Source: Bacteroidota bacterium
GTDB lineage: Bacteria; Bacteroidota; Bacteroidia; UKL13-3
Direction of reading: 5' to 3'
Assembly: GCA_004293295.1 (NCBI GenBank)
Contig: RDYC01000186.1
Location: forward strand, 1-38,552
Length of the DNA stretch: 38,552 nt
The translations under genes were made by a program, and so were the position numbers. Numbering within the stretch: the stretch's first letter is position 1; each line of letters opens with the position of its first letter. A model generated the notes under the pieces. It saw only the letters and a program-made list of their open reading frames with translations, had not been told where the DNA came from and did not search any database. Shown piece by piece: positions 616 through 12,900 of the stretch.

Positions 616-1701
616 ATGAGTTGGTTATTACCTGATATTATCATCCTTGAAAATAGATTGGAAGACATCTTAATCTTTGTTGCAATATTGCTGGTTGGGG
701 TGTTTTTTAAGCCTTTTTGTGCTAAACTTTTAAGCAGGCAGTCATTTAGAATCTTTAAGGCATTCTCCCGGAATAAATTTGGTGAAGTATTTGTTGATTT
801 GCTAAGAAAGCCCATCGAGCGAATTATTTTTTTGTTGGTGATTTATTACGCTTTTGAAAGATTAAGTTTTCCTACCTCATGGAACCTGGCTCCGGTTGAT
901 AAGATTGGGCTGCGCTGGCTGGTATTAACGGTATGGCAAATTATACTTACTATTTATGTGTGTAGAATGTTACTGTGCACAACCGACTTTTTTACCCATG
1001 TGCTTATTAATCGGGAGGAGTCACCAATTTCTCCGGAACTGGGCATGTTCTTAAAAGAGTTAATCAAGGTGGTAATTGTAATATTATGTGTATTTGCAGG
1101 CTTGAGGTTTGTTTTCCATATCAATATCACCGCATTAATAGCCTCACTCGGAATTGGAGGTTTAGCGGTTGCATTAGCCGCACAGGATACGCTTGCAAAC
1201 CTATTAGGTTCTTTTGTAATCTATCTGGATAAACCCTTTAAAGCAGGCGACTATATTGAATCAGGTGAAATTAAGGGAGTGATTGAGCATGTGGGATTCA
1301 GGACTACCCGTATACGAACTTTAGAAAAGAGTTTGTTAACGGTTCCCAACAAGAAGTTAATTGATACCGCGCTAAACAATATCACTATGAGTGAGGCGAG
1401 AAGGGTTAAATTTAATATTGCGCTCACTTATTCGAGTAAGTCTAATCAAATACTTTCGATAATTACAGATATCAAACAACTGCTTGATGAGCATGAACTC
1501 GTGAGTAAAGATATCACGGTAAGGTTTGCTGATTTTGACACCAGTTCATTGAATATTCTGGTAATTTATTTCGTAATGAGCAATGACTATGATATGATGA
1601 TTCGCGTGAAGGAGGAATTAAATATTAGGATATTAGAAATTGTTGAAAAGAACGATTGCAGGTTTGCATACCCAACACAAACCCTTTACCTCCATCAATA
1701 A
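616..1701 (+). CDS. small-conductance mechanosensitive channel (MscS family)
   Basis: 361-aa ORF. Hydrophobic N-terminal helices are followed by the MscS pore/beta-domain signature LGIGGLAVALAAQDTLANLLGSFVIYLDKPFKAGDYI...GVIEHVGFRTTRIRT. Confidence 0.9.
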   Translation: MSWLLPDIIILENRLEDILIFVAILLVGVFFKPFCAKLLSRQSFRIFKAFSRNKFGEVFVDLLRKPIERIIFLLVIYYAFERLSFPTSWNLAPVDKIGLRWLVLTVWQIILTIYVCRMLLCTTDFFTHVLINREESPISPELGMFLKELIKVVIVILCVFAGLRFVFHINITALIASLGIGGLAVALAAQDTLANLLGSFVIYLDKPFKAGDYIESGEIKGVIEHVGFRTTRIRTLEKSLLTVPNKKLIDTALNNITMSEARRVKFNIALTYSSKSNQILSIITDIKQLLDEHELVSKDITVRFADFDTSSLNILVIYFVMSNDYDMMIRVKEELNIRILEIVEKNDCRFAYPTQTLYLHQ

Positions 1702-2564
1702 TCAAGCGTGTTAAAGCAATACATTAAATCATTTAATGAGGTAATTTCTTTGGCATTTATTATACCAATCCATGCTGCAAATCCCTGGTACAATTCAGTG
1801 ATGGTATAGTGTTGTTTGAAATCGGCTAAACTAAAACTACCGGCTGATTTGGAGAGCTTGTTCCCTTGTTCATTCACCAACAAAGGGTGATGATAAAACT
1901 TAGTATGGATAAAACTTTTAAGTTGAAGTTGATGAGATAAAAAAAGCTGGAAACAAGTACTGGCTAATAAATCTTCACCGCGCACTATGCAATTTATCCC
2001 ATAATCAACATCATCAATTAAACTAATGAGTTGATAGGCCGGTAACCCATCTTTTCGTTTAATTACAGGATGTGTAAGGGTATTACCCAGCGTTAAGCTT
2101 ACCTGTTTTTGGGTAAAGTGGTCAAAGAAAAACTGAGTTGTTGTTGAAGGAAGCAAGCGCCAATTGCAACCATCTTTTAAAGGCAATTGCTTACCAATAC
2201 AAACTCCCGGATAATTAGGGTAATCACCAATGGATTTTCTGGAGCATGTACAAGCAAAAAGACGCCCATCATTCTTGAGTAATTCAATATAATGCTGATA
2301 AATTTCCAGCCGCTGTCCTTGGCTATAAGTAAAAGCCTCACCGGCATTTTGTGGCCCCAATTGCCAATAAATACCTAACCAATCTAATGCATAAAATAAG
2401 TCATCAATAAAGGACTGCTTAGTCCGCAAACCATCATGGTCGTCAATACGCAAGCGCAGTTCACCTTTGTGCTTACTTATTAGTAAAAAAGTAAACAAAA
2501 AACTATAAGCATTACCCAAGTGTAAAAAGCCACTTGGTGTTGGTGCTATTCTACCCTTAATCAT
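1695..2564 (-). CDS. gluQ: glutamyl-Q tRNA(Asp) synthetase (GluRS catalytic-domain paralogue)
   Basis: 289 aa. HIGH-type motif (PSGFLHLGN), KMSKS-type motif (KLSKS) and a CxC...Y...C zinc-site-like pattern (ACTCSRK...YPGVC). The length fits a catalytic domain without an anticodon-binding domain. Confidence 0.85.
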   Translation of the reverse strand: MIKGRIAPTPSGFLHLGNAYSFLFTFLLISKHKGELRLRIDDHDGLRTKQSFIDDLFYALDWLGIYWQLGPQNAGEAFTYSQGQRLEIYQHYIELLKNDGRLFACTCSRKSIGDYPNYPGVCIGKQLPLKDGCNWRLLPSTTTQFFFDHFTQKQVSLTLGNTLTHPVIKRKDGLPAYQLISLIDDVDYGINCIVRGEDLLASTCFQLFLSHQLQLKSFIHTKFYHHPLLVNEQGNKLSKSAGSFSLADFKQHYTITELYQGFAAWIGIINAKEITSLNDLMYCFNTLDY

Positions 2565-2663
2565 AATTTTATGTTCTAATAATGAATTAGTTACAAATAA
2601 AGCGCAAATATTGCTTAAAAATTAATTTCAGTTTAATAATAAAATTATCATCTTTGAATCGCG

Positions 2664-2710
2664 TTATTGATAACAATAAGATAACAATTGTTCTTTACAT
2701 CTATCAATAA
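2664..2710. promoter_or_regulatory. repeat-dense operator-like segment in the divergent intergenic region
   Basis: TTATTGATA (2664-2672) and its exact reverse complement TATCAATAA (2702-2710) bracket two direct GATAACAAT copies (2669-2677 and 2680-2688, 11-nt register) and the palindrome ACAATTGT (2684-2691). Confidence 0.3.
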
Positions 2711-2815
2711 CCGACTGCGGGCATAAGCGCAGTCCACTGGTTCGCCCTCGTGGGGTTTAATGGTTATACAGGCTAATTAAGGAACTCCTCCCGGAGTTCC
2801 TGATTAGCTGTTTTT
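2711..2815 (+). ncRNA. unclassified structured RNA element, copy 1 (5' hairpin + conserved module + terminator-like hairpin)
   Basis: 7-bp hairpin GACUGCG/CGCAGUC (2713-2719 / 2728-2734). Conserved 72-nt module at 2744-2815 ends in a long imperfect hairpin (core GGAACUCC-UCCC-GGAGUUCC, extended by CUAAU/AUUAG and CAG/CUG) followed by TTTTT (2811-2815). Confidence 0.45.
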
Positions 2816-2837
2816 AGGTCCAAACAGCGAACAACCT

Positions 2838-2941
2838 CCGACTACAGGTTTCAGTAGTCCACTTAGTTTGCCCTCGTGGGGTTTAATGGTTATACAGGCT
2901 AATTAAGGAACTCCTCCCGGAGTTCCTGATTAGCTGTTTTT
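2838..2941 (+). ncRNA. unclassified structured RNA element, copy 2
   Basis: 6-bp hairpin GACUAC/GUAGUC (2840-2845 / 2854-2859). The 72-nt module at 2870-2941 is identical to 2744-2815, including the long hairpin and T-run (2937-2941). Confidence 0.45.
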
Positions 2942-3026
2942 GGTAAAATTCTTTCAAAATACGTTTTATTGTTTGTTATTGTGCCAATTCATGTTGAAAT
3001 TTGTTTTCTAGCGCAATAAAATTCAG

Positions 3027-6000
3027 GTGATTAAAAAACCATATTTTCTTCTCAAATTACTGTCTCTTTCAGGGCTTTTAGTGCTGCCAATGCTAAGCGT
3101 AGGCCAAGGTATGTACACGCAATTTGGCCAAAACAGGGTGCAATACAGCAAATTTGTTTGGAGTTTTGTGCGGTCAGAGAATTTTGATGCTTATTTCTAT
3201 TCAGGGGGAAAAGAGTTGGCTACTTTTGCTGCTCGCACTGCGGAAGAGCAACTTGGGCAAATCGAAAAATTAATAGACCACAGGCTCAGCGAAAAGGTTG
3301 AAATAGTGATCTATAATACCCAACAAGAATACAAGCAGGCAAACTTTGGTTTATCTGATCAGCCGGCAAATTTGGGAGGCATTACCCAAGCAACAGATAA
3401 CAGGTTTTTCGTTTATTTTAATGGCAATAGGGGGGATTTTGAAAAAAGAATTAAAGAGGGTTTGGCCTTGGTGTTAATTAACGAATTGCTTTTTGGCGGC
3501 AATATCCAAGAGCGAATTTCAAACGCAGCACTGCTCAATTTGCCGGACTGGTTTTTAAGGGGCCTCACAGCCTATTTAAGTGACCCATGGAATACAACAT
3601 TAGATAATAAGTTAAAAGACATTATTGTAAGTGGTAAACTTAAAAAGTTTAACCGGTTACTTTATAAGGAACCGCTGTTTGCCGGGCAATCATTTTGGCG
3701 CTTTTTAGTGGAGAAGTATGGCAATGATGTTATTGCTAATATGCTATACATAACTAGGCTTAGCAGAAATTATGAAACTGCATTGATTTATGTTACCGGT
3801 ATTGATTTAAAAGTGGCCAGTAAAGATTGGCTTGCATTTTATAAAGAACAATACGCAAAGGAGGACAACATGAGGACCCTTCCACTGCAGCAAATTAAGG
3901 TTAAAAAACGCCTTACGCCTTACATAGAACCAAAATTTAAGGTAGCTCCCAAGGGCGACTTTGTGGCGTTTACCACCAACAAGAGAGGTAAATTTAAGGT
4001 TTGGCTGGTTAATACCACCACACAAAAACATAAGCGCATTCATAAGGGGGGGCTAAAGTATAATCAGCGCGAGTTGGATCATTCTTTCCCAATGTTAGCC
4101 TGGCATCCGGGAGGAGAAAAAATTTCATATGTGCATGAAAGAAGAGGTAAAATATACATTACCACCGTAGATTTAATCAAAAAGAAGAAAACCAAAATCC
4201 TCTTTTTAAAGTTCGATAAAATAACCGGATTTGCTTATTCTGATAATGGAAATACATTAATCATATCAGCAATAAGAAAAGGACAAAGCGATTTGTACTT
4301 GTATGACATGCAAACCAGAAGAGAACGGCAAATAACCAACGATCCTTTTGATGATTTGTATCCAACATATGCAGATGGGGGAGGTAAGATACTGTTTGCT
4401 TCTAACCGAAATAGTGATTCATTGGGAAGTGCCGCTCCTATGACACTCGATGTAAACAATAACTTGGATATCTATGTGTACGATTTAGAAAAAACAGGCC
4501 AACCCGATGCTATTAAAAGATTAAGTAATACACCCGGTATTAATGAGATACATCCGGTTGAATACAATAATAATTACTACAGCTACCTAACAGAATACAA
4601 TGGTATTGTAAACAGGTATGCCGTTCGTGTTGAAGAACAATATGATTTTACAGAATTACGTGTTGTTAGAAAAGATTCATTAAAAACCATTGATACCCTG
4701 TATTACGAACGTTTAGAAGACAGGGGTAGCGTGTTCGATTATAATGGTAAAACGATAAGGTTAGGTGAAGATGTGGAAAGAATAGATACCGTGATTCATA
4801 ATAAGGATGTGGTATTTACTTACCCATTAACAAATTATAACAGAAGTATTTTAGCACATGACGTTTGCAAACAAAAGCAACTTACCTACGATTTTGTATT
4901 GAGCAAAAAGCGGTACAATATTTTTTATTCAGCAGTAGAGAAACAAATTGAAGAAACCGGACAAAAAATAGAAACCTATCCCAATTTATTCCGCCTTAAA
5001 ACAGGTTATGCTACCAAACCATTCATGATTGGTCCGGTTGTGTTTAAACCACGAAGTATTCCGGGGCTTGTAGTGGTTGCGCCCAATCAAGAACAACCCG
5101 CAGAGGTGGTTGATTCTGTTAAAAAAGATGATTTCTTTTTTGTGACTGAATTTACACCAAACTCATTCAAGGCGGAAGATGTAAAAACAACATTTAAAGC
5201 AGAAGCAAAACCCATTGACAAATTTTTGAAAGTAAGTGGGGCAAAATTCTATAACATTACTTTTTTTCAAGATAAGCTCGTAACGCAGGTTGATAACTCC
5301 GTGTTAAACACGTATTACCAGCCCATTACACCTGGCGGAGCCAACTTATTTAATACAGGGCTTAATGGCATGTTTAAATATGGGCTTATTGATTTGTTTG
5401 AAGATTATAAGCTGGTTGGAGGTTTTCGCCTTCCTTTTCTGTTAAATGGTGCAGATGTGTTTGTTACCTACGAAAGTTTAAAGCGAAGGCTAGACCACCG
5501 CATTACCTATTTTCGCCAAATGAGAGAGGGTACTTTTGAGGGTACTCCTGTAAAGAGCACGGTAAATGAATTGCGTTATGAAACAAATTACCCGATAAAT
5601 CAAGTATTGAGTTTAAGGGCTAACATATTCGGCAGGATAGACAGGGACGTATTTAAAGGAGTGAATTACCCAACTTTGGCAAAGGCAGATAAATTTACAA
5701 TCTGGACGGGCTATAAGGGAGAATTGGTTTTTGATAACACCATACCGAGAGGGCTGAATTTACTGGATGGCACGAGGTTTAAGGTGTTTTTTGAACAATA
5801 CATTAACTTTCAAGATGAGGAGGTAAGGCTTAATGTAGCCGGATTTGATTTTAGGCACTATGAGCCTATTCATCGCAATATTATTTTCTGTGGCCGCTTG
5901 TCTGCCAACACCAGCTGGGGTAAGAGAAAAGTGCGTTATGTTATGGGAGGAGTTGATAACTGGTTATTTCCACAATATGAAACAGCAAACAATAGCCCTT

Positions 6001-6437
6001 TCGGTACGGAACAATATGCTTTTGAAGCACTTGCTACCAACATGAGGGGATTTAAACAAAACATTCGCAATGGAAGCACTTTTGCTGTGGCAAGCGCTGA
6101 AATACGCATCCCAATTGTTTCTTACATTGCAAACAGACCTATTCGATCGGATTTTTTAAATAATTTTTTAATTGTACCGTTTTTTGATATTGGTACTGCT
6201 TGGACCGGTTCAGGGCCTTACAGCGATGAGAATACCTTTAACCAAAAAGTTATTCAAACAGGTAATGTAAGGGCAACAGTAATTAATGTGAGGGAGCCAA
6301 TAGTAGCAGGCTTTGGTCCAGGCGTTCGCAGTAAACTTTTTGGGTATTATGTGAGGCTTGATATGGCTTATGGAATTCAAGACCGGGAGATAGCTGAAAA
6401 ACCGATTTATCACTTATCCATAAGTATGGACTTTTAG
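3027..6437 (+). CDS. large outer-membrane protein: signal peptide, PD40/TolB-like beta-propeller repeats, C-terminal Omp85-like beta-barrel
   Basis: 1136 aa with GTG start and signal peptide MIKKPYFLLKLLSLSGLLVLPMLSVGQG. PD40-like repeats (DLYLYDMQTRRERQITNDPFDDLYPTYADGGGKILFASNR). C-terminal Omp85-like strings (NMRGFKQN...AVASAEIRIPI...FFDIGTAW) and a terminal Phe (SISMDF). Confidence 0.7.
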   Translation: MIKKPYFLLKLLSLSGLLVLPMLSVGQGMYTQFGQNRVQYSKFVWSFVRSENFDAYFYSGGKELATFAARTAEEQLGQIEKLIDHRLSEKVEIVIYNTQQEYKQANFGLSDQPANLGGITQATDNRFFVYFNGNRGDFEKRIKEGLALVLINELLFGGNIQERISNAALLNLPDWFLRGLTAYLSDPWNTTLDNKLKDIIVSGKLKKFNRLLYKEPLFAGQSFWRFLVEKYGNDVIANMLYITRLSRNYETALIYVTGIDLKVASKDWLAFYKEQYAKEDNMRTLPLQQIKVKKRLTPYIEPKFKVAPKGDFVAFTTNKRGKFKVWLVNTTTQKHKRIHKGGLKYNQRELDHSFPMLAWHPGGEKISYVHERRGKIYITTVDLIKKKKTKILFLKFDKITGFAYSDNGNTLIISAIRKGQSDLYLYDMQTRRERQITNDPFDDLYPTYADGGGKILFASNRNSDSLGSAAPMTLDVNNNLDIYVYDLEKTGQPDAIKRLSNTPGINEIHPVEYNNNYYSYLTEYNGIVNRYAVRVEEQYDFTELRVVRKDSLKTIDTLYYERLEDRGSVFDYNGKTIRLGEDVERIDTVIHNKDVVFTYPLTNYNRSILAHDVCKQKQLTYDFVLSKKRYNIFYSAVEKQIEETGQKIETYPNLFRLKTGYATKPFMIGPVVFKPRSIPGLVVVAPNQEQPAEVVDSVKKDDFFFVTEFTPNSFKAEDVKTTFKAEAKPIDKFLKVSGAKFYNITFFQDKLVTQVDNSVLNTYYQPITPGGANLFNTGLNGMFKYGLIDLFEDYKLVGGFRLPFLLNGADVFVTYESLKRRLDHRITYFRQMREGTFEGTPVKSTVNELRYETNYPINQVLSLRANIFGRIDRDVFKGVNYPTLAKADKFTIWTGYKGELVFDNTIPRGLNLLDGTRFKVFFEQYINFQDEEVRLNVAGFDFRHYEPIHRNIIFCGRLSANTSWGKRKVRYVMGGVDNWLFPQYETANNSPFGTEQYAFEALATNMRGFKQNIRNGSTFAVASAEIRIPIVSYIANRPIRSDFLNNFLIVPFFDIGTAWTGSGPYSDENTFNQKVIQTGNVRATVINVREPIVAGFGPGVRSKLFGYYVRLDMAYGIQDREIAEKPIYHLSISMDF

Positions 6438-9509: not shown

Positions 9510-9953
9510 ATGAGTGAAGAAATCAAAGAGTTTGAGAGTTATTCAGGTCCTGCGTCACTTTCGCCCATTCCATTAACTGTTGGTTCTGTGCCTATTAAGG
9601 CTGAGGATAAGGGTAAAATTAAAGCAAATGCGGTTCAAGCCATGCACCACTACGCTCAACAAGAGATGGACATGCTTAAGAAGCAGGCCGATTTAATAAT
9701 GCAACAGGTGCGAGAAATAGAAGACCGGTTAAAAATATCAGAGCAAATATATCAGTCAGATATTCGGTTTACCCCGGTGGTTAATCAAGTTTACCACCTG
9801 TATAAAAAAGAAGATTATTTTACCTTGTCGTTAATTGGCCCAGGTGAATGGGGCAGGAAAGCAAAACCTTTGGAGTATGTAGCCAGTGTGCGGCTTTTGG
9901 GCGACCATAGTTGGCAGGTACTGCAAAAAAACAACCAAGGCACTACTACCTGA
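9510..9953 (+). CDS. conserved-looking hypothetical protein (coiled-coil centre)
   Basis: 147-aa ORF with a clean ATG downstream of a -7 box. Heptad-like segment QQEMDMLKKQADLIMQQVREIEDRLKISEQIY. No motif I can name. Confidence 0.6.
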   Translation: MSEEIKEFESYSGPASLSPIPLTVGSVPIKAEDKGKIKANAVQAMHHYAQQEMDMLKKQADLIMQQVREIEDRLKISEQIYQSDIRFTPVVNQVYHLYKKEDYFTLSLIGPGEWGRKAKPLEYVASVRLLGDHSWQVLQKNNQGTTT

Positions 9954-12900
9954 TAACAGTAACCGTTCCATGGTCGTTTATGGAAGGTCCATTTTTTTTC
10001 TTAATATTCATGATGTAATAATAAACCCCATCAGGAATATCTATACCTGCTTGACTTTTTCCATTCCAACAATGGGTGCCATCTGTATTTTCATAAACCA
10101 CATTTCCCCAACGGTTAAATATTTTGATATAATACTCATCGCATTTGGGATTAACACCCGTTACTTGAAAACAATCATTTAACCCATCATCATTTGGGGT
10201 AAACACATTGGGTATTTTAATTTCTTGTGCACTGTCTCCATCAATAAAATATAGTTGTTCCAATGTATCGGCACAATAGGAGCCTGGATTGTATAAGAGC
10301 GTTACTTTGTAATACCCACTCTTGTCGTAGGTGTGCATTGGGCTTTGTTGTTTGCTACTATCACCATCGCCAAAAAACCAAACAAATGGCACCCCATTAC
10401 TTGCACTTTTATTCTCAAACACCACATTAAGTGAACAACTGTCGCGTTTCATCACGAAATCAGCATTTGCAAAAAGGTCAACATTAAAAAATTGTCTAGC
10501 GGTATCAATTATAGCACAGGTGTTGCTATCAACGGTTATTAACATTAACTCATAATCACCGGCAAGTGTTATGGTATCTTTGTAATCTTTGGTTTGTTTT
10601 TTTTGTACATTGTTTAAATACCAATAAAACTGTTTACCGTTTTGGCTGGTGTTTGTTGCCTGCACATAAGCAGGGGTGCACAATTGGCTATCTTGCAAAT
10701 TAAATGAAGCATTCAATAAATGCTCATCTTTAATGAACCTAATGGTGGTTCTGGCAGTATCTGCACAAGGTGTATTTGAATTTGTAATTAAGGTAATTTG
10801 GTAGTTGCCGGAATCTGTATACGCATGAACAGGATTTTCAAGCAAGCTGCTATCTCCATCTCCAAAGTACCAAACATAAGTTGGGGGAATTTGACTATTG
10901 CTGGAGCTAAGGTTTTTAATCAAAACATTATTAGAGCAAGAGTCTTTTTTGGTAATGAATTCAGCATTGGCGGATGAGTAACTTGGTATGGTTACAGCAT
11001 AAGTATCAGCCTTTAGGCAGGTGATGTTACTTTTAGCAATTAGGCTTATTTTAACAACACCTGCTTCAACAATGGTATCGGTAAAATTAAGGCTGCTATC
11101 TTTTATTACATCATCAATGAGCCAATAATATGTTTGTCCTTGCTGACTTTGGTTTTTTGCCGTGAAAATAACCGGTTCGCAGAAATAGGTGTCGCTAACA
11201 TCAAAAAAGGCATTTAAAATCCGATCACCGGGTTTTAGGGTAACCGGCTTTTCAAAAAATTGGCTGCAAGGAAACCCTAAATTTGCGGTAAGCTTTACAA
11301 CATATGTGCCTGTGTCATCATATTGATGTGTCGGGTTAACTGCAGTTGAAGAACTACCATCACCGAAATCCCATAAATAGTTGGCCGTGTCTCCGGGAAG
11401 AATGATGGAATTATTGGTAAAGGACATGTTTAAACTACAGGTGTCCTGAATAAATGTAAAATCAGTATAAGTTTCCGGAAAAACATAAAAAGTGCGTTCT
11501 ACAGAGTCTCTTTTTATACAGGTATTGGTATCGGTTACTACCAATTTAACATGATAAGTTCCTTTTTGTGCGATGCTATCAAAGCCGGAAGCTTCTGTAT
11601 TAACCAACACGTTATTAAAGTACCAAAAAAAATGTTGGCCATTGGTTCCATTATTTCTAAGCTGTAAAAGATAGGGTTCGCACTGTAATGAATCTGATGG
11701 AGTAAAACTTGCACGTAGTTTAAAACCACTTGTGTCATAAATTATGGTAGTTTCAGCGGTATCAGCACATTGGCTTAACTCACCGGTAATGAGCTGAACT
11801 TTATAAGAGCCGTTAAGTTGATATGAATAAGTAGGGTTGGTATCCTTACTGGTATTGCCGTCACCAAAATACCAGGTAAACGGCACAGGTTGGTTATTAA
11901 TGGAAGTGCTTTTATTGGTAAACTTAAGGATTGAGCTGCACGTATCTCTGGTTACAGTAAATTGGGCATTTGAACTTGGGAAAATAGAAAAAGTTTTAAC
12001 GATAGAGTCAATGGGATTACATTTTCCGTTATCTAAAACAACCAATTTCACTTTGTTTTTCCCTACCAGTTTAAATGTATCGGTTAAGTGATAGCTGCTA
12101 TCACGCAATACATCATTGATGTACCAATAAAATTTTTGCCCGTTGTAAGAAGTATTTTCAAAAAAAATCACCGAGTCGGTGCAGCCATTGCGCGGCTTAA
12201 TATTAAAGTTGGCTGTTAAAATATCGCCCTGCCTAAAATCAATTTTTGCACCGGCATTGCTGCAACGTGGGCTTTTATTTTTTGGCGAAAAACTTCCTGC
12301 TGTGGTAGGAAAAGTTCCTGCCGGCCCCTTATCACAACTTGCACAAACAGATTGGTAAATGATCCCTCTTTTATCAAATCTACTGGTTCCCCCATCAACA
12401 TGGTCATTTCCTCCATTTTCGCCAAAATAAGAGGCATATTGCAATTGTGTAGCCGATTGGTTTAATGAGAATATCCAAAAATCACTGCCATCACTGCCTG
12501 CTATTAATTGTGTGCCAACAGTTGGAAGAGACAATGTGCTTGACGAAAATGTTCGGTATACCCCCGTTAGCCTATTCCTGTCCAATTCCGCATACCTGGA
12601 TTGAAAATTGACATTTCCGCCCCAAAGAGACCCATAAATACTACCGCATACATCAACCATAAAGGCACTTGGTGATAAGGCATTTACTTTTGTTCCATTA
12701 CCCAAGTGTGTTGAAAAAATAATATTGCTTAGGGTTGGTGTAAACTTGGTTACAAAAATGGATCCGTCATTATTAGCATAAACCCCGTTTGTAACACCTA
12801 CACTATCAAATCCTTGTCCCATTACTACCACATTTTGTTGCGGGTCGAGTTTTACAAAATAAACTTGGTCGTAAGCCGGACTTCCCCAATACCTTATTCC

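What the first reader, a model, noticed from the sequence alone, without database searches (positions are those of the whole stretch)
2711..2941. Tandem pair of approximately 105-nt structured RNA-like elements with a compensatory stem change and a perfectly conserved 72-nt terminator-bearing module
Seen in sequence: two plus-strand units (2711-2815 and 2838-2941) sit in the 462-nt divergent spacer between gluQ and the large OMP gene. Their 3' 72 nt (2744-2815 versus 2870-2941) are identical. This module ends in an approximately 18-bp imperfect hairpin (core GGAACUCC UCCC GGAGUUCC) followed by a T-run, so it looks like an intrinsic terminator. Their 5' parts are strongly diverged yet both fold into a hairpin with an 8-nt loop. 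Copy 1 forms GACUGCG/CGCAGUC and copy 2 forms GACUAC/GUAGUC. The fifth pair changes G-C to A-U on both arms, and the loop sequences are unrelated (GGCAUAAG versus AGGUUUCA). Unequal divergence with stem preservation argues for a functional RNA rather than a neutral duplication. There is no obvious promoter between the copies. Copy 2 would therefore be reached by read-through of copy 1, as in tandem attenuators or riboswitches. The OMP gene also has a GAAATTTG -7-like string at 2996-3003, so the units could equally be stand-alone sRNAs. I cannot match the sequence to any riboswitch or sRNA family I know.
Basis: partly seen in the sequence, partly recalled or inferred. Interest (0 to 1): 0.7.

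Follow-up and report, generated by a model that had tools for sequence, protein, structure and literature searches.

The report
New tandem small RNA gene family
The two repeated units are real copies of a previously undescribed, strongly conserved structured small RNA found at one chromosomal spot in a narrow group of uncultured Bacteroidota; its function is still unknown.

Summary
Units at 2711-2815 and 2838-2941 share an identical 72-nt 3' module, and their 5' hairpins differ by a compensatory change.

About 30 homologous copies were found in some 20 Bacteroidota genomes and metagenome contigs. They show a genuine RNA family that has no Rfam match:
- a Bacteroidetes-type -7 promoter box at 2649-2656;
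- hairpin P1;
- an invariant core, UUGCCC-NN-GUGGGGUUUAAUGGUUAUACA;
- a long terminator hairpin P3 followed by a U-run.

P0, P1 and P3 all show compensatory changes. The core never varies, even where the search left it unconstrained.

The element is not REP- or MITE-like. Each genome has one locus, the orientation is always the same, and there are 1 to at least 3 tandem units.

In the metagenome-assembled genomes (MAGs) it always lies just upstream of a Tricorn_N/PD40 gene. That gene has its own conserved promoter, which relatives lacking the RNA also keep. In Pedobacter insulae the RNA sits inside a conjugative element and faces a convergent gene.

The best reading is a stand-alone trans-acting small RNA, with extra promoter-less units in some lineages. 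A riboswitch or attenuator is unlikely. Transcription, targets and the expression of unit 2 are untested.

The parts
2649..2656 (+). Predicted sigma-A -7 promoter box (CATCTTTG; Bacteroidetes consensus TAnnTTTG). The predicted transcription start is near 2661.
   Evidence: An NNNNTTTG box lies exactly 6 nt before the conserved GTT of P0 in all 14 distinct main-clade first copies. It appears as TAAGTTTG, CATATTTG or TATATTTG in others. The box occupies -12 to -5 relative to the start site in Flavobacterium (PMC9723704). Transcription was not tested.
2663..2711 (+). P0, a 5' hairpin of unit 1. The arms are GUUAUUGAUA (2663-2672) and UAUCAAUAAC (2702-2711). The apical region carries the semi-conserved motif GUUCUUUA (2690-2697).
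   Evidence: Present in the minimum-energy fold and in the folds of homologues. An ungapped, anchor-based pairing count shows compensatory changes at arm positions 4-10 across 14 distinct sequences.
2713..2734 (+). P1 of unit 1: GACUGCG / GGCAUAAG / CGCAGUC.
   Evidence: All 6 modelled pairs have double compensatory changes among 28 homologous units, and 99.4% of cells are paired.
2744..2777 (+). Invariant core of unit 1. It contains the small hairpin P2 (GCCCU-CGU-GGGGU, 2744-2756), a predicted single-stranded stretch UUAAUGGUUAUACA (2757-2770), and the start of P3.
   Evidence: Identical in every copy found except for one G-to-A change in L011 and the L033 variant. The middle 13 nt stayed invariant when the search left them unconstrained. 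L033 keeps UUGCCC-AA-GUGGGGUUUAAUGGUUAUACA. P2 itself has no covariation, so it is untested.
2768..2815 (+). P3, the intrinsic-terminator-like hairpin of unit 1 (about 19 pairs, loop UCCC), followed by the U-run at 2811-2815.
   Evidence: Folding energy -24.4 kcal/mol, z = -5.6. The upper stem covaries at 5 of 7 pairs. The lower stem GGCUAAU/AUUAGCU is fully replaced by CCCUGAC/GUUAGGG in L033. The simple terminator scan did not call it, because the U-run follows the imperfect outer stem.
2816..2839 (+). Spacer between the units. It contains no TAnnTTTG-like box.
   Evidence: Read directly from the sequence. The spacers of other arrays share AAACAAC-like sequence.
2840..2859 (+). P1 of unit 2: GACUAC / AGGUUUCA / GUAGUC.
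   Evidence: The orthologous unit 2 in L026 has GGCUAC/GUAGCC, a double change that keeps the pair.
2870..2903 (+). Invariant core of unit 2.
   Evidence: Identical to 2744-2777.
2894..2941 (+). P3 terminator hairpin of unit 2, with the U-run at 2937-2941.
   Evidence: Identical to unit 1.
2972..3003 (+). The downstream Tricorn_N/PD40 gene's own predicted promoter: -33 TTTG at 2972-2975 and -7 GAAATTTG at 2996-3003. This is context, not part of the RNA.
   Evidence: (C/T)(G/C)AAATTTG lies in front of the gene in all orthologous loci, including the RNA-less loci L009, L034 and L035.

Best explanation
The region encodes a new family of structured small RNA, transcribed from the + strand as a stand-alone gene.

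**Unit 1 (about 2661-2815, roughly 155 nt).** It starts at a Bacteroidetes sigma-A promoter and folds into four elements:
- two sequence-variable hairpins, P0 and P1;
- an invariant core made of the small hairpin P2 plus about 15 unpaired nucleotides (GGGGUUUAAUGGUUAUACA);
- a long hairpin P3 with a U-run, which acts as an intrinsic terminator.

**Unit 2 (about 2816-2941).** It is an older tandem duplicate of the P1-core-P3 module and has no promoter or P0 of its own. It would be made by read-through of terminator 1, or from a promoter I cannot recognise.

**Proposed mechanism.** The invariant core is the working surface and acts in trans. My preferred version is base-pairing of the unpaired stretch with mRNAs (about 0.4). 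The alternative is binding of a protein or complex (about 0.2). P0, P1 and P3 would give stability, folding and termination, and extra units would raise dosage.

**Shown:** the repeat, the structure with covariation, the strand, the single locus, the invariance and the absence from Rfam.

**Inferred:** the promoter, termination, trans action and read-through.
For: - **Repeat beyond chance:**
- **Homologues:** 17 genome loci plus 4 metagenome loci, and further copies at orthologous loci. All are on one strand at one locus per genome, with 1 to at least 3 tandem units.
- **Covariation:** 98.8% of cells are paired, against 30-57% in the slid controls. Eleven pairs carry double changes; P1 covaries at 6 of 6 pairs and upper P3 at 5 of 7 (RNAalifold). 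P0 covaries. Lower P3 covaries in L033.
- **Strand:** + scores 87-136 bits and the reverse strand 15-23 bits. G-U pairs and the U-run exist only on +.
- **Folding:** z = -5.7 for unit 1.
- **Conservation:** the RNA is more conserved than the neighbouring genes. It is 80-95% identical in nucleotides with a 100% identical core, against 67-74% for the flanking coding DNA.
- **Promoter:** the -7 box sits at a fixed 6-nt spacing (consensus from PMC9723704).
- **Stand-alone status:** the downstream gene keeps its own promoter even where the RNA is absent. In P. insulae the RNA is followed by a convergent mobC gene.
- **Unit 2 is under selection:** its P1 stem is kept by a double change between the window and L026.
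- **No coding potential:** there is no conserved ORF on either strand.
Against: - No transcript data exist for any member.
- No target was found. There are no complementary 11-mers or longer in the window. Pairing with the adjacent mRNA's 5' region is not consistent across loci (z near 0).
- Thirty-four contiguous invariant nucleotides is more than a typical seed needs. This fits a protein- or ligand-binding surface at least as well.
- In every MAG the RNA lies directly upstream of the same gene, even in L033 where both outer flanks differ. This could indicate a cis relationship.
- Units 2 and 3 have no recognisable promoter.
- The simple terminator scan did not call P3.
Confidence: 0.6

Rival explanations
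1. A cis-acting leader (riboswitch or attenuator) of the Tricorn_N/PD40 gene. The invariant core senses a ligand or protein and decides whether P3 terminates. Tandem units would sharpen the response.
For: - The RNA lies directly upstream of the same gene, on the same strand, in all MAG loci. This includes L033, where both outer flanks differ.
- Each unit ends in a terminator.
- An invariant core flanked by variable stems resembles an aptamer.
- Tandem riboswitch units are known (general knowledge).
Against: - A conserved -33/-7 promoter lies between the RNA and the gene, and it persists in relatives that lack the RNA.
- The P. insulae copy faces a convergent gene.
- When the 5' strand of P3 changes completely in L033, no upstream segment changes with it. 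The linker varies while P3 stays fixed. There is therefore no sign of an anti-terminator.
- Copy number varies from 1 to 3.
- No Rfam riboswitch scores even at E = 10 or below.
Confidence: 0.15
2. A protein-binding or RNP-scaffold RNA. The invariant P2 plus the unpaired stretch is a recognition site for a conserved protein or machine, and the RNA sequesters or guides it.
For: - The invariant stretch is unusually long (25-34 nt) and includes a small hairpin. It is identical in the MAG clade and in a Pedobacter conjugative element.
- No complementary targets were found.
- Multiple units would multiply the binding sites.
Against: - No partner gene is linked to the RNA in any locus.
- There is only one site per unit, unlike CsrB-type sponges.
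- Nothing here distinguishes this from a base-pairing seed.
Confidence: 0.2
3. A DNA-level repeat (REP, BIME or MITE-like element, or a neutral tandem duplication), or simply a double terminator that insulates the downstream promoter.
For: - Palindromic hairpins and a tandem duplication lie in an intergenic region.
- Strong terminators sit just upstream of a promoter.
Against: - There is one locus per genome, always in the same orientation. No other copy occurs in the window or in about 330 kb of related loci.
- There are no hits in viral contigs, plasmids or phages.
- Compensatory changes and G-U pairs are strand-specific.
- An invariant non-palindromic core is not explained by a terminator or insulator role.
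- Single-copy forms are the most common.
Confidence: 0.03

Closest known systems
Tandem paralogous small RNAs such as PrrF1/PrrF2 of Pseudomonas (with the read-through product PrrH), LhrC1-4 of Listeria and OmrA/OmrB of enterobacteria (from my own knowledge, not tested here)
   Same: Near-identical small RNA units lie head to tail in one intergenic region, and each ends in an intrinsic terminator. A conserved region is shared by the copies while other parts diverge. In PrrF, read-through of the first terminator gives a longer RNA.
   Different: - There is no sequence or structural similarity.
- In those systems each copy has its own regulated promoter. Here only the first unit has a recognisable one, together with an extra hairpin P0.
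- Those RNAs depend on Hfq, which Bacteroidota generally lack.
- Here copy number varies from 1 to at least 3 between close relatives.
Multi-copy small RNAs with a long invariant seed, such as Qrr1-5 of Vibrio and GcvB R1 (own knowledge)
   Same: A contiguous invariant stretch of tens of nucleotides is flanked by variable hairpins and a terminator.
   Different: The Qrr genes are dispersed and sigma-54 dependent. No targets, regulators or chaperone are known here, and the phylogenetic range is much narrower.
Described Bacteroidota small RNAs, such as GibS and MasB of Bacteroides and the Rfp RNAs of Flavobacterium psychrophilum (PMC9723704)
   Same: The same phylum and the same gene design: a TAnnTTTG -7 promoter, structured hairpins and a terminator, in an intergenic position.
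   Different: There is no match to any Rfam 15 family, which includes the curated Bacteroidota motifs. The core sequence was not found in the literature library.
Tandem riboswitches or attenuators, such as tandem glycine or TPP units
   Same: Repeated structured units, each with a terminator hairpin, lie upstream of and on the same strand as a gene.
   Different: - An independent promoter lies between the RNA and the gene.
- There is an orphan copy in P. insulae.
- There is no multi-stem junction and no anti-terminator.
- Unit number varies between close relatives.
REP/BIME and MITE elements
   Same: Intergenic, hairpin-forming and repeated.
   Different: It is not dispersed. It has one locus and one orientation, a promoter and a terminator, a non-palindromic invariant core, and strand-specific covariation.

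Membership tests
Any Rfam 15 family (4227 models, including riboswitches, ribozymes, SRP, 6S, tmRNA and the Bacteroidota motifs) | Score at or above the family's gathering threshold, or at least a suggestive E-value | tested here: not met
   There were 0 hits at gathering thresholds in the window and in 7 related loci, except for one tRNA elsewhere. At E = 10 or below on short stretches there were only noise hits (snoRNA/miRNA) or none.
REP/BIME/MITE-type dispersed repeat | Many copies scattered over the genome, in both orientations | tested here: not met
   - There are exactly 2 copies in the 38.5-kb window.
- The scan of GTDB species genomes gave 17 loci, 1-2 matches each, always in the same orientation. 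The only MAG with two contigs has contig ends that overlap by 62 nt, so they form one array.
- The covariance model finds nothing else in about 330 kb of loci.
- Limits: the MAGs are incomplete, and the scan needed an exact 21-mer.
Intrinsic (Rho-independent) terminator | A stable G+C-rich hairpin immediately followed by a U-run on the transcribed strand | tested here: met
   P3 folds at -24.4 kcal/mol with z = -5.6 and is followed by UUUUU. The same design occurs in all homologues, with covarying stems. The simple scan missed it because the outer stem is imperfect.
Intrinsic (Rho-independent) terminator | Transcripts actually end there | not testable with these tools
   No transcript data are available. 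Term-seq or 3' RACE is needed.
Stand-alone trans-acting small RNA gene | Its own promoter and its own terminator, not part of a neighbouring mRNA | tested here: met
   - A conserved -7 box lies at fixed spacing, with -33-like TTG/TTTG elements in several loci.
- A terminator is present.
- The downstream gene has a separate conserved promoter.
- The P. insulae copy lies between a small HTH-like ORF and a convergent mobC gene.

All of this is sequence-based only.
Stand-alone trans-acting small RNA gene | Identified targets or partner | tested here: inconclusive
   There was no complementarity of 11 nt or more in the window and no consistent duplex with the adjacent mRNA. Whole genomes of the clade could not be scanned.
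Riboswitch / transcription attenuator | Lies in the 5' untranslated region of the regulated gene, with no promoter in between | tested here: not met
   A -33/-7 promoter-like pair lies at 2972-3003, between the RNA and the start codon. It is conserved in all orthologous loci, including those without the RNA. It is a predicted promoter, not a mapped one.
Riboswitch / transcription attenuator | A conserved alternative (anti-terminator) pairing that competes with the terminator | tested here: inconclusive
   - No segment covaries with the 5' strand of P3 when that strand is replaced in L033.
- A candidate CCAC:GUGG pairing has one compensatory case (L011). It is broken in L021, L036 and L033, and is absent in L014.
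Riboswitch / transcription attenuator | Constant association with one gene family | tested here: inconclusive
   The RNA is upstream of the Tricorn_N/PD40 gene in all MAG loci but not in P. insulae. Much of the association may be inherited synteny.
Type III toxin-antitoxin RNA repeats (ToxI-like) | Short tandem repeats (about 30-50 nt) followed by a terminator and an endoribonuclease toxin gene | tested here: not met
   The units are 105-155 nt, each has its own terminator, and the single-unit form is the most common. The downstream gene is a widely conserved 1136-aa Tricorn_N/PD40 protein.

The most novel reading that the evidence does not exclude
The invariant 25-34-nt core could be a new, compact aptamer or catalytic or RNP-forming module rather than a seed. 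It would sit in a self-contained RNA gene cassette (promoter, variable hairpins, core, terminator) that can multiply in tandem and move between bacterial classes on conjugative elements. This is suggested by the identical core in the freshwater MAG clade and in a Pedobacter insulae ICE.
Probability: 0.12. Interest if true: 0.75.

Novelty: new member of a known kind. Interest (0 to 1): 0.45.

Why it matters
Very few small RNAs are known in Bacteroidota outside gut Bacteroides, and none in the abundant uncultured freshwater lineages.

This family has unusually clear comparative support:
- three covarying helices;
- a core that never changes while neighbouring proteins drift to 65-75% identity;
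- variable tandem copy number.

It also has one cultivable carrier, Pedobacter insulae DSM 18684, so it can be tested directly. If the core proves to be a seed, it defines a conserved regulon in these bacteria. If it binds a protein or ligand, it is a new RNA motif.

The work also adds a practical point: tandem RNA arrays break MAG assemblies, so their copy number is underestimated.

Tried and rejected
**Searches that found no known family or mobile-element link**
- Rfam at gathering thresholds and at permissive thresholds on the window, the L033 variant and 7 loci: nothing.
- tRNA/tmRNA scan: nothing.
- Exact-core scan of viral contigs, and BLASTN against plasmids and phages: nothing. There is therefore no general link to mobile elements.
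- Literature search for the core sequence and for Bacteroidota small-RNA surveys: no description found.

**Target searches**
- Complementarity of the core to the window: only chance-level 9-10-mers.
- Duplex prediction against the 5' region of the adjacent mRNA in 20 loci: z-scores around 0 and no common site.

**Alternative structures and identities**
- CCAC:GUGG pairing. There is one compensatory case (L011), but it is broken in L021, L036 and L033 and absent in L014. It was not adopted.
- A pseudoknot between the P1 loop GGGC and the core GCCC. It is absent in many units and was rejected.
- A small peptide. The ORF MVIQAN* is not conserved and there are no ORFs on the minus strand.
- A dif-like or protein-binding DNA site. 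The core is not palindromic, and promoter, terminator and covariation all point to RNA.
- tRNA-Asp mimicry for the neighbouring GluQRS. gluQ is absent from most loci that carry the RNA.

**Other**
- The related Pedobacter ICE (L032) has no copy, so the RNA is not a general feature of that ICE family.
- The simple terminator scan did not call P3.

Full report
**1. The observation**

- One search finds a 76-nt direct repeat, 2740-2815 and 2866-2941, with one mismatch. The stretches 2744-2815 and 2870-2941 are identical over 72 nt. Both are on the + strand, 126 nt apart.
- The 65-nt core and the 20-nt hairpin core each occur exactly twice in the window and never in 100 shuffles.
- The two 5' hairpins are GACUGCG/CGCAGUC (2713-2734) and GACUAC/GUAGUC (2840-2859), each with an unrelated 8-nt loop. 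They are present.
- The 3' hairpin has about 19 pairs, folds at -24.4 kcal/mol (z = -5.6) and is followed by UUUUU.
- The whole 246-nt region folds far better than shuffled sequence on both strands. This is expected for palindromic hairpins, so folding energy alone does not identify the strand.

**2. Context**

The window comes from an uncultured Bacteroidota bacterium with about 38% G+C.
- The spacer 2565-3026 lies between a GluQRS gene (1695-2564, minus strand) and a 1136-aa gene (3027-6437, plus strand).
- The product of the 1136-aa gene has Tricorn_N, Tricorn_2nd and PD40 domains and weak peptidase-MA matches.
- MscS lies upstream and thymidine kinase downstream.

**3. Homologues**

Orthologous loci were found through the 1136-aa protein. 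They contain the same element, in one copy (L004, L005, L006) or two (L001). A scan of 185,579 species genomes for a 21-nt core word gave 17 loci, all Bacteroidota:
- sixteen are MAGs;
- one is the isolate Pedobacter insulae DSM 18684;
- each locus has one or two matches, always in the same orientation.

The two contigs from one MAG (L022 and L010) overlap by 62 nt at their ends. They therefore form one array of at least three units.

A metagenome scan left the middle 13 nt of the core free. It found only 4 loci, and the middle was unchanged in all of them. Viral contigs, plasmids and phages gave nothing.

A covariance model built from 21 units (R1) finds only these copies in all the loci held. 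It scores 87-136 bits on the + strand and 15-23 bits on the reverse strand.

**4. Anatomy**

All first units share the same plan:
- a TAnnTTTG-like -7 box, which in the window is CATCTTTG at 2649-2656;
- exactly 6 nt later, a hairpin P0 of 46-50 nt (window arms 2663-2672 and 2702-2711);
- hairpin P1;
- a short linker, usually beginning CCACU;
- the core GCCCUC(G/A)UGGGGUUUAAUGGUUAUACAGGCUAAU;
- the long hairpin P3 and a U-run.

In Flavobacterium the -7 box occupies -12 to -5 (PMC9723704). This places the window's start site near 2661 and makes unit 1 about 155 nt long (fold -54.1 kcal/mol, z = -5.7).

Downstream units in arrays consist of P1, core and P3 only, and no -7-like box lies in the spacers.

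**5. Covariation**

On the model-fitted alignment of 28 units:
- 98.8% of cells pair, against 30-57% when partners are slid by 1-3 columns;
- eleven pairs carry double changes;
- P1 covaries at 6 of 6 pairs and upper P3 at 5 of 7.

RNAalifold on the plain MAFFT alignment gives the same helices. P0 was tested without gaps, using the conserved anchors. Its arms pair in all 14 distinct main-clade sequences, with different sequences at positions 4-10.

A diverged member (L033, 52.5 bits, E = 7e-10) replaces the lower P3 stem GGCUAAU/AUUAGCU with CCCUGAC/GUUAGGG. That helix is therefore supported as well. The truly invariant part narrows to UUGCCC-NN-GUGGGGUUUAAUGGUUAUACA.

P2 (GCCCU/GGGGU) never varies, so it is neither supported nor contradicted. 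An alternative CCAC:GUGG pairing has one compensatory case (L011) but is broken in L021, L036 and L033.

The RNA is 80-95% identical between genomes whose flanking coding DNA is 67-74% identical.

**6. The two copies in the window**

Unit 2 is not a recent or decaying duplicate. Its orthologue in L026 shares the loop start ACAGGU but has GGCUAC/GUAGCC instead of GACUAC/GUAGUC. Unit 1 likewise differs between the two genomes by a C-G to U-A change. Both hairpins are therefore kept by selection independently. How unit 2 is transcribed remains open.

**7. Stand-alone or leader?**

In every MAG the RNA lies directly upstream of the Tricorn-like gene. This holds even in L033, where both outer flanks differ. 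That is the best argument for a cis role.

Four points argue against it:
- A -33/-7 pair (2972-2975 and 2996-3003) lies between the RNA and the start codon. It is conserved in all orthologous loci, including L009, L034 and L035, which lack the RNA.
- In P. insulae the RNA lies between a 71-aa HTH-like ORF and a convergent mobC gene, inside an ICE-like region.
- No anti-terminator partner covaries with P3.
- Copy number varies from 1 to 3.

I therefore favour a stand-alone RNA.

**8. Function**

Nothing found here identifies a target or partner.
- The window contains only chance-level complementarity to the core.
- Predicted duplexes with the adjacent mRNA's 5' region are no better than with shuffled sequence, and they are not at a common site.
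- No conserved ORF exists on either strand.

I commit to a trans-acting small RNA whose invariant, largely unpaired core is the interaction surface (0.6 overall). Within that, base-pairing is somewhat more likely than protein binding. Cis attenuation is at 0.15, and a DNA-level repeat or mere insulator at about 0.03.

**9. Comparison and novelty**

No Rfam 15 family matches, even at E = 10 or below. The core sequence does not occur in the literature library.

In design it resembles tandem paralogous small RNAs (PrrF1/2, LhrC, OmrA/B) and small RNAs with long invariant seeds (Qrr). There is no homology to these, and only one promoter serves the whole array.

It is a new family of a known kind of gene. 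Interest is moderate: comparative support is unusually strong and a cultivable host exists, but the distribution is narrow and the function is unknown.

Noticed in passing
window 2560-2572 and 2639-2651: A 13-nt inverted repeat (92% complementary). One arm covers the gluQ start codon and the other lies just 5' of the small RNA's -7 box. The right arm is changed in L001, so it is probably chance in AT-rich DNA.
   Followed up: partly
window 2972-3003; L004 about 9945-10000; L009 2935-2950; L034 2422-2432; L035 2494-2504: The Tricorn_N/PD40 gene has a conserved -33 TTTG and -7 (C/T)(G/C)AAATTTG promoter-like pair in all relatives, with or without the RNA. In the L004-type clade the short leader carries the palindrome ACGTTATTAACGT just before the GTG start codon.
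   Followed up: partly
L002/L003 position 1; L010 and L022 contig ends; L029 end: Assemblies repeatedly break inside the RNA array. Contigs start or end within P3 or P1, so the copy number seen in MAGs is a lower bound. L022 and L010 overlap by 62 nt and together give at least 3 units.
   Followed up: yes
L031 (Pedobacter insulae FOPP01000010.1) 1-21986; RNA at 12045-12150 (minus strand): The only copy in a cultured isolate lies in an ICE-like region. That region carries SSB, DUF932, a PRTRC ThiF/E2/ubiquitin-like set, RadC, MobA/relaxase/MobC and a 3850-aa DUF6443 protein. The RNA comes right after a 71-aa HTH-like ORF. A related ICE in Candidatus Pedobacter colombiensis (L032) lacks the RNA.
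   Followed up: partly
window 2690-2697 (P0 apical region): The motif GUUCUUUA recurs in the P0 apical loop of many, but not all, lineages (window, L004, L005, L017, L020-L023, L036). It could be a second functional single-stranded site.
   Followed up: no
window 1695-1701: The convergent MscS (616-1701, +) and GluQRS (1695-2564, -) reading frames overlap by 7 nt at their 3' ends. GluQRS is absent from most related loci, where MscS directly precedes the RNA.
   Followed up: no
L023 4648-4790 (minus strand) and L029 2380-2470: In one lineage the P1 of the first unit is expanded to a hairpin of about 50 nt (CUGUUG...CAACAG). This shows that P1 tolerates large insertions.
   Followed up: no
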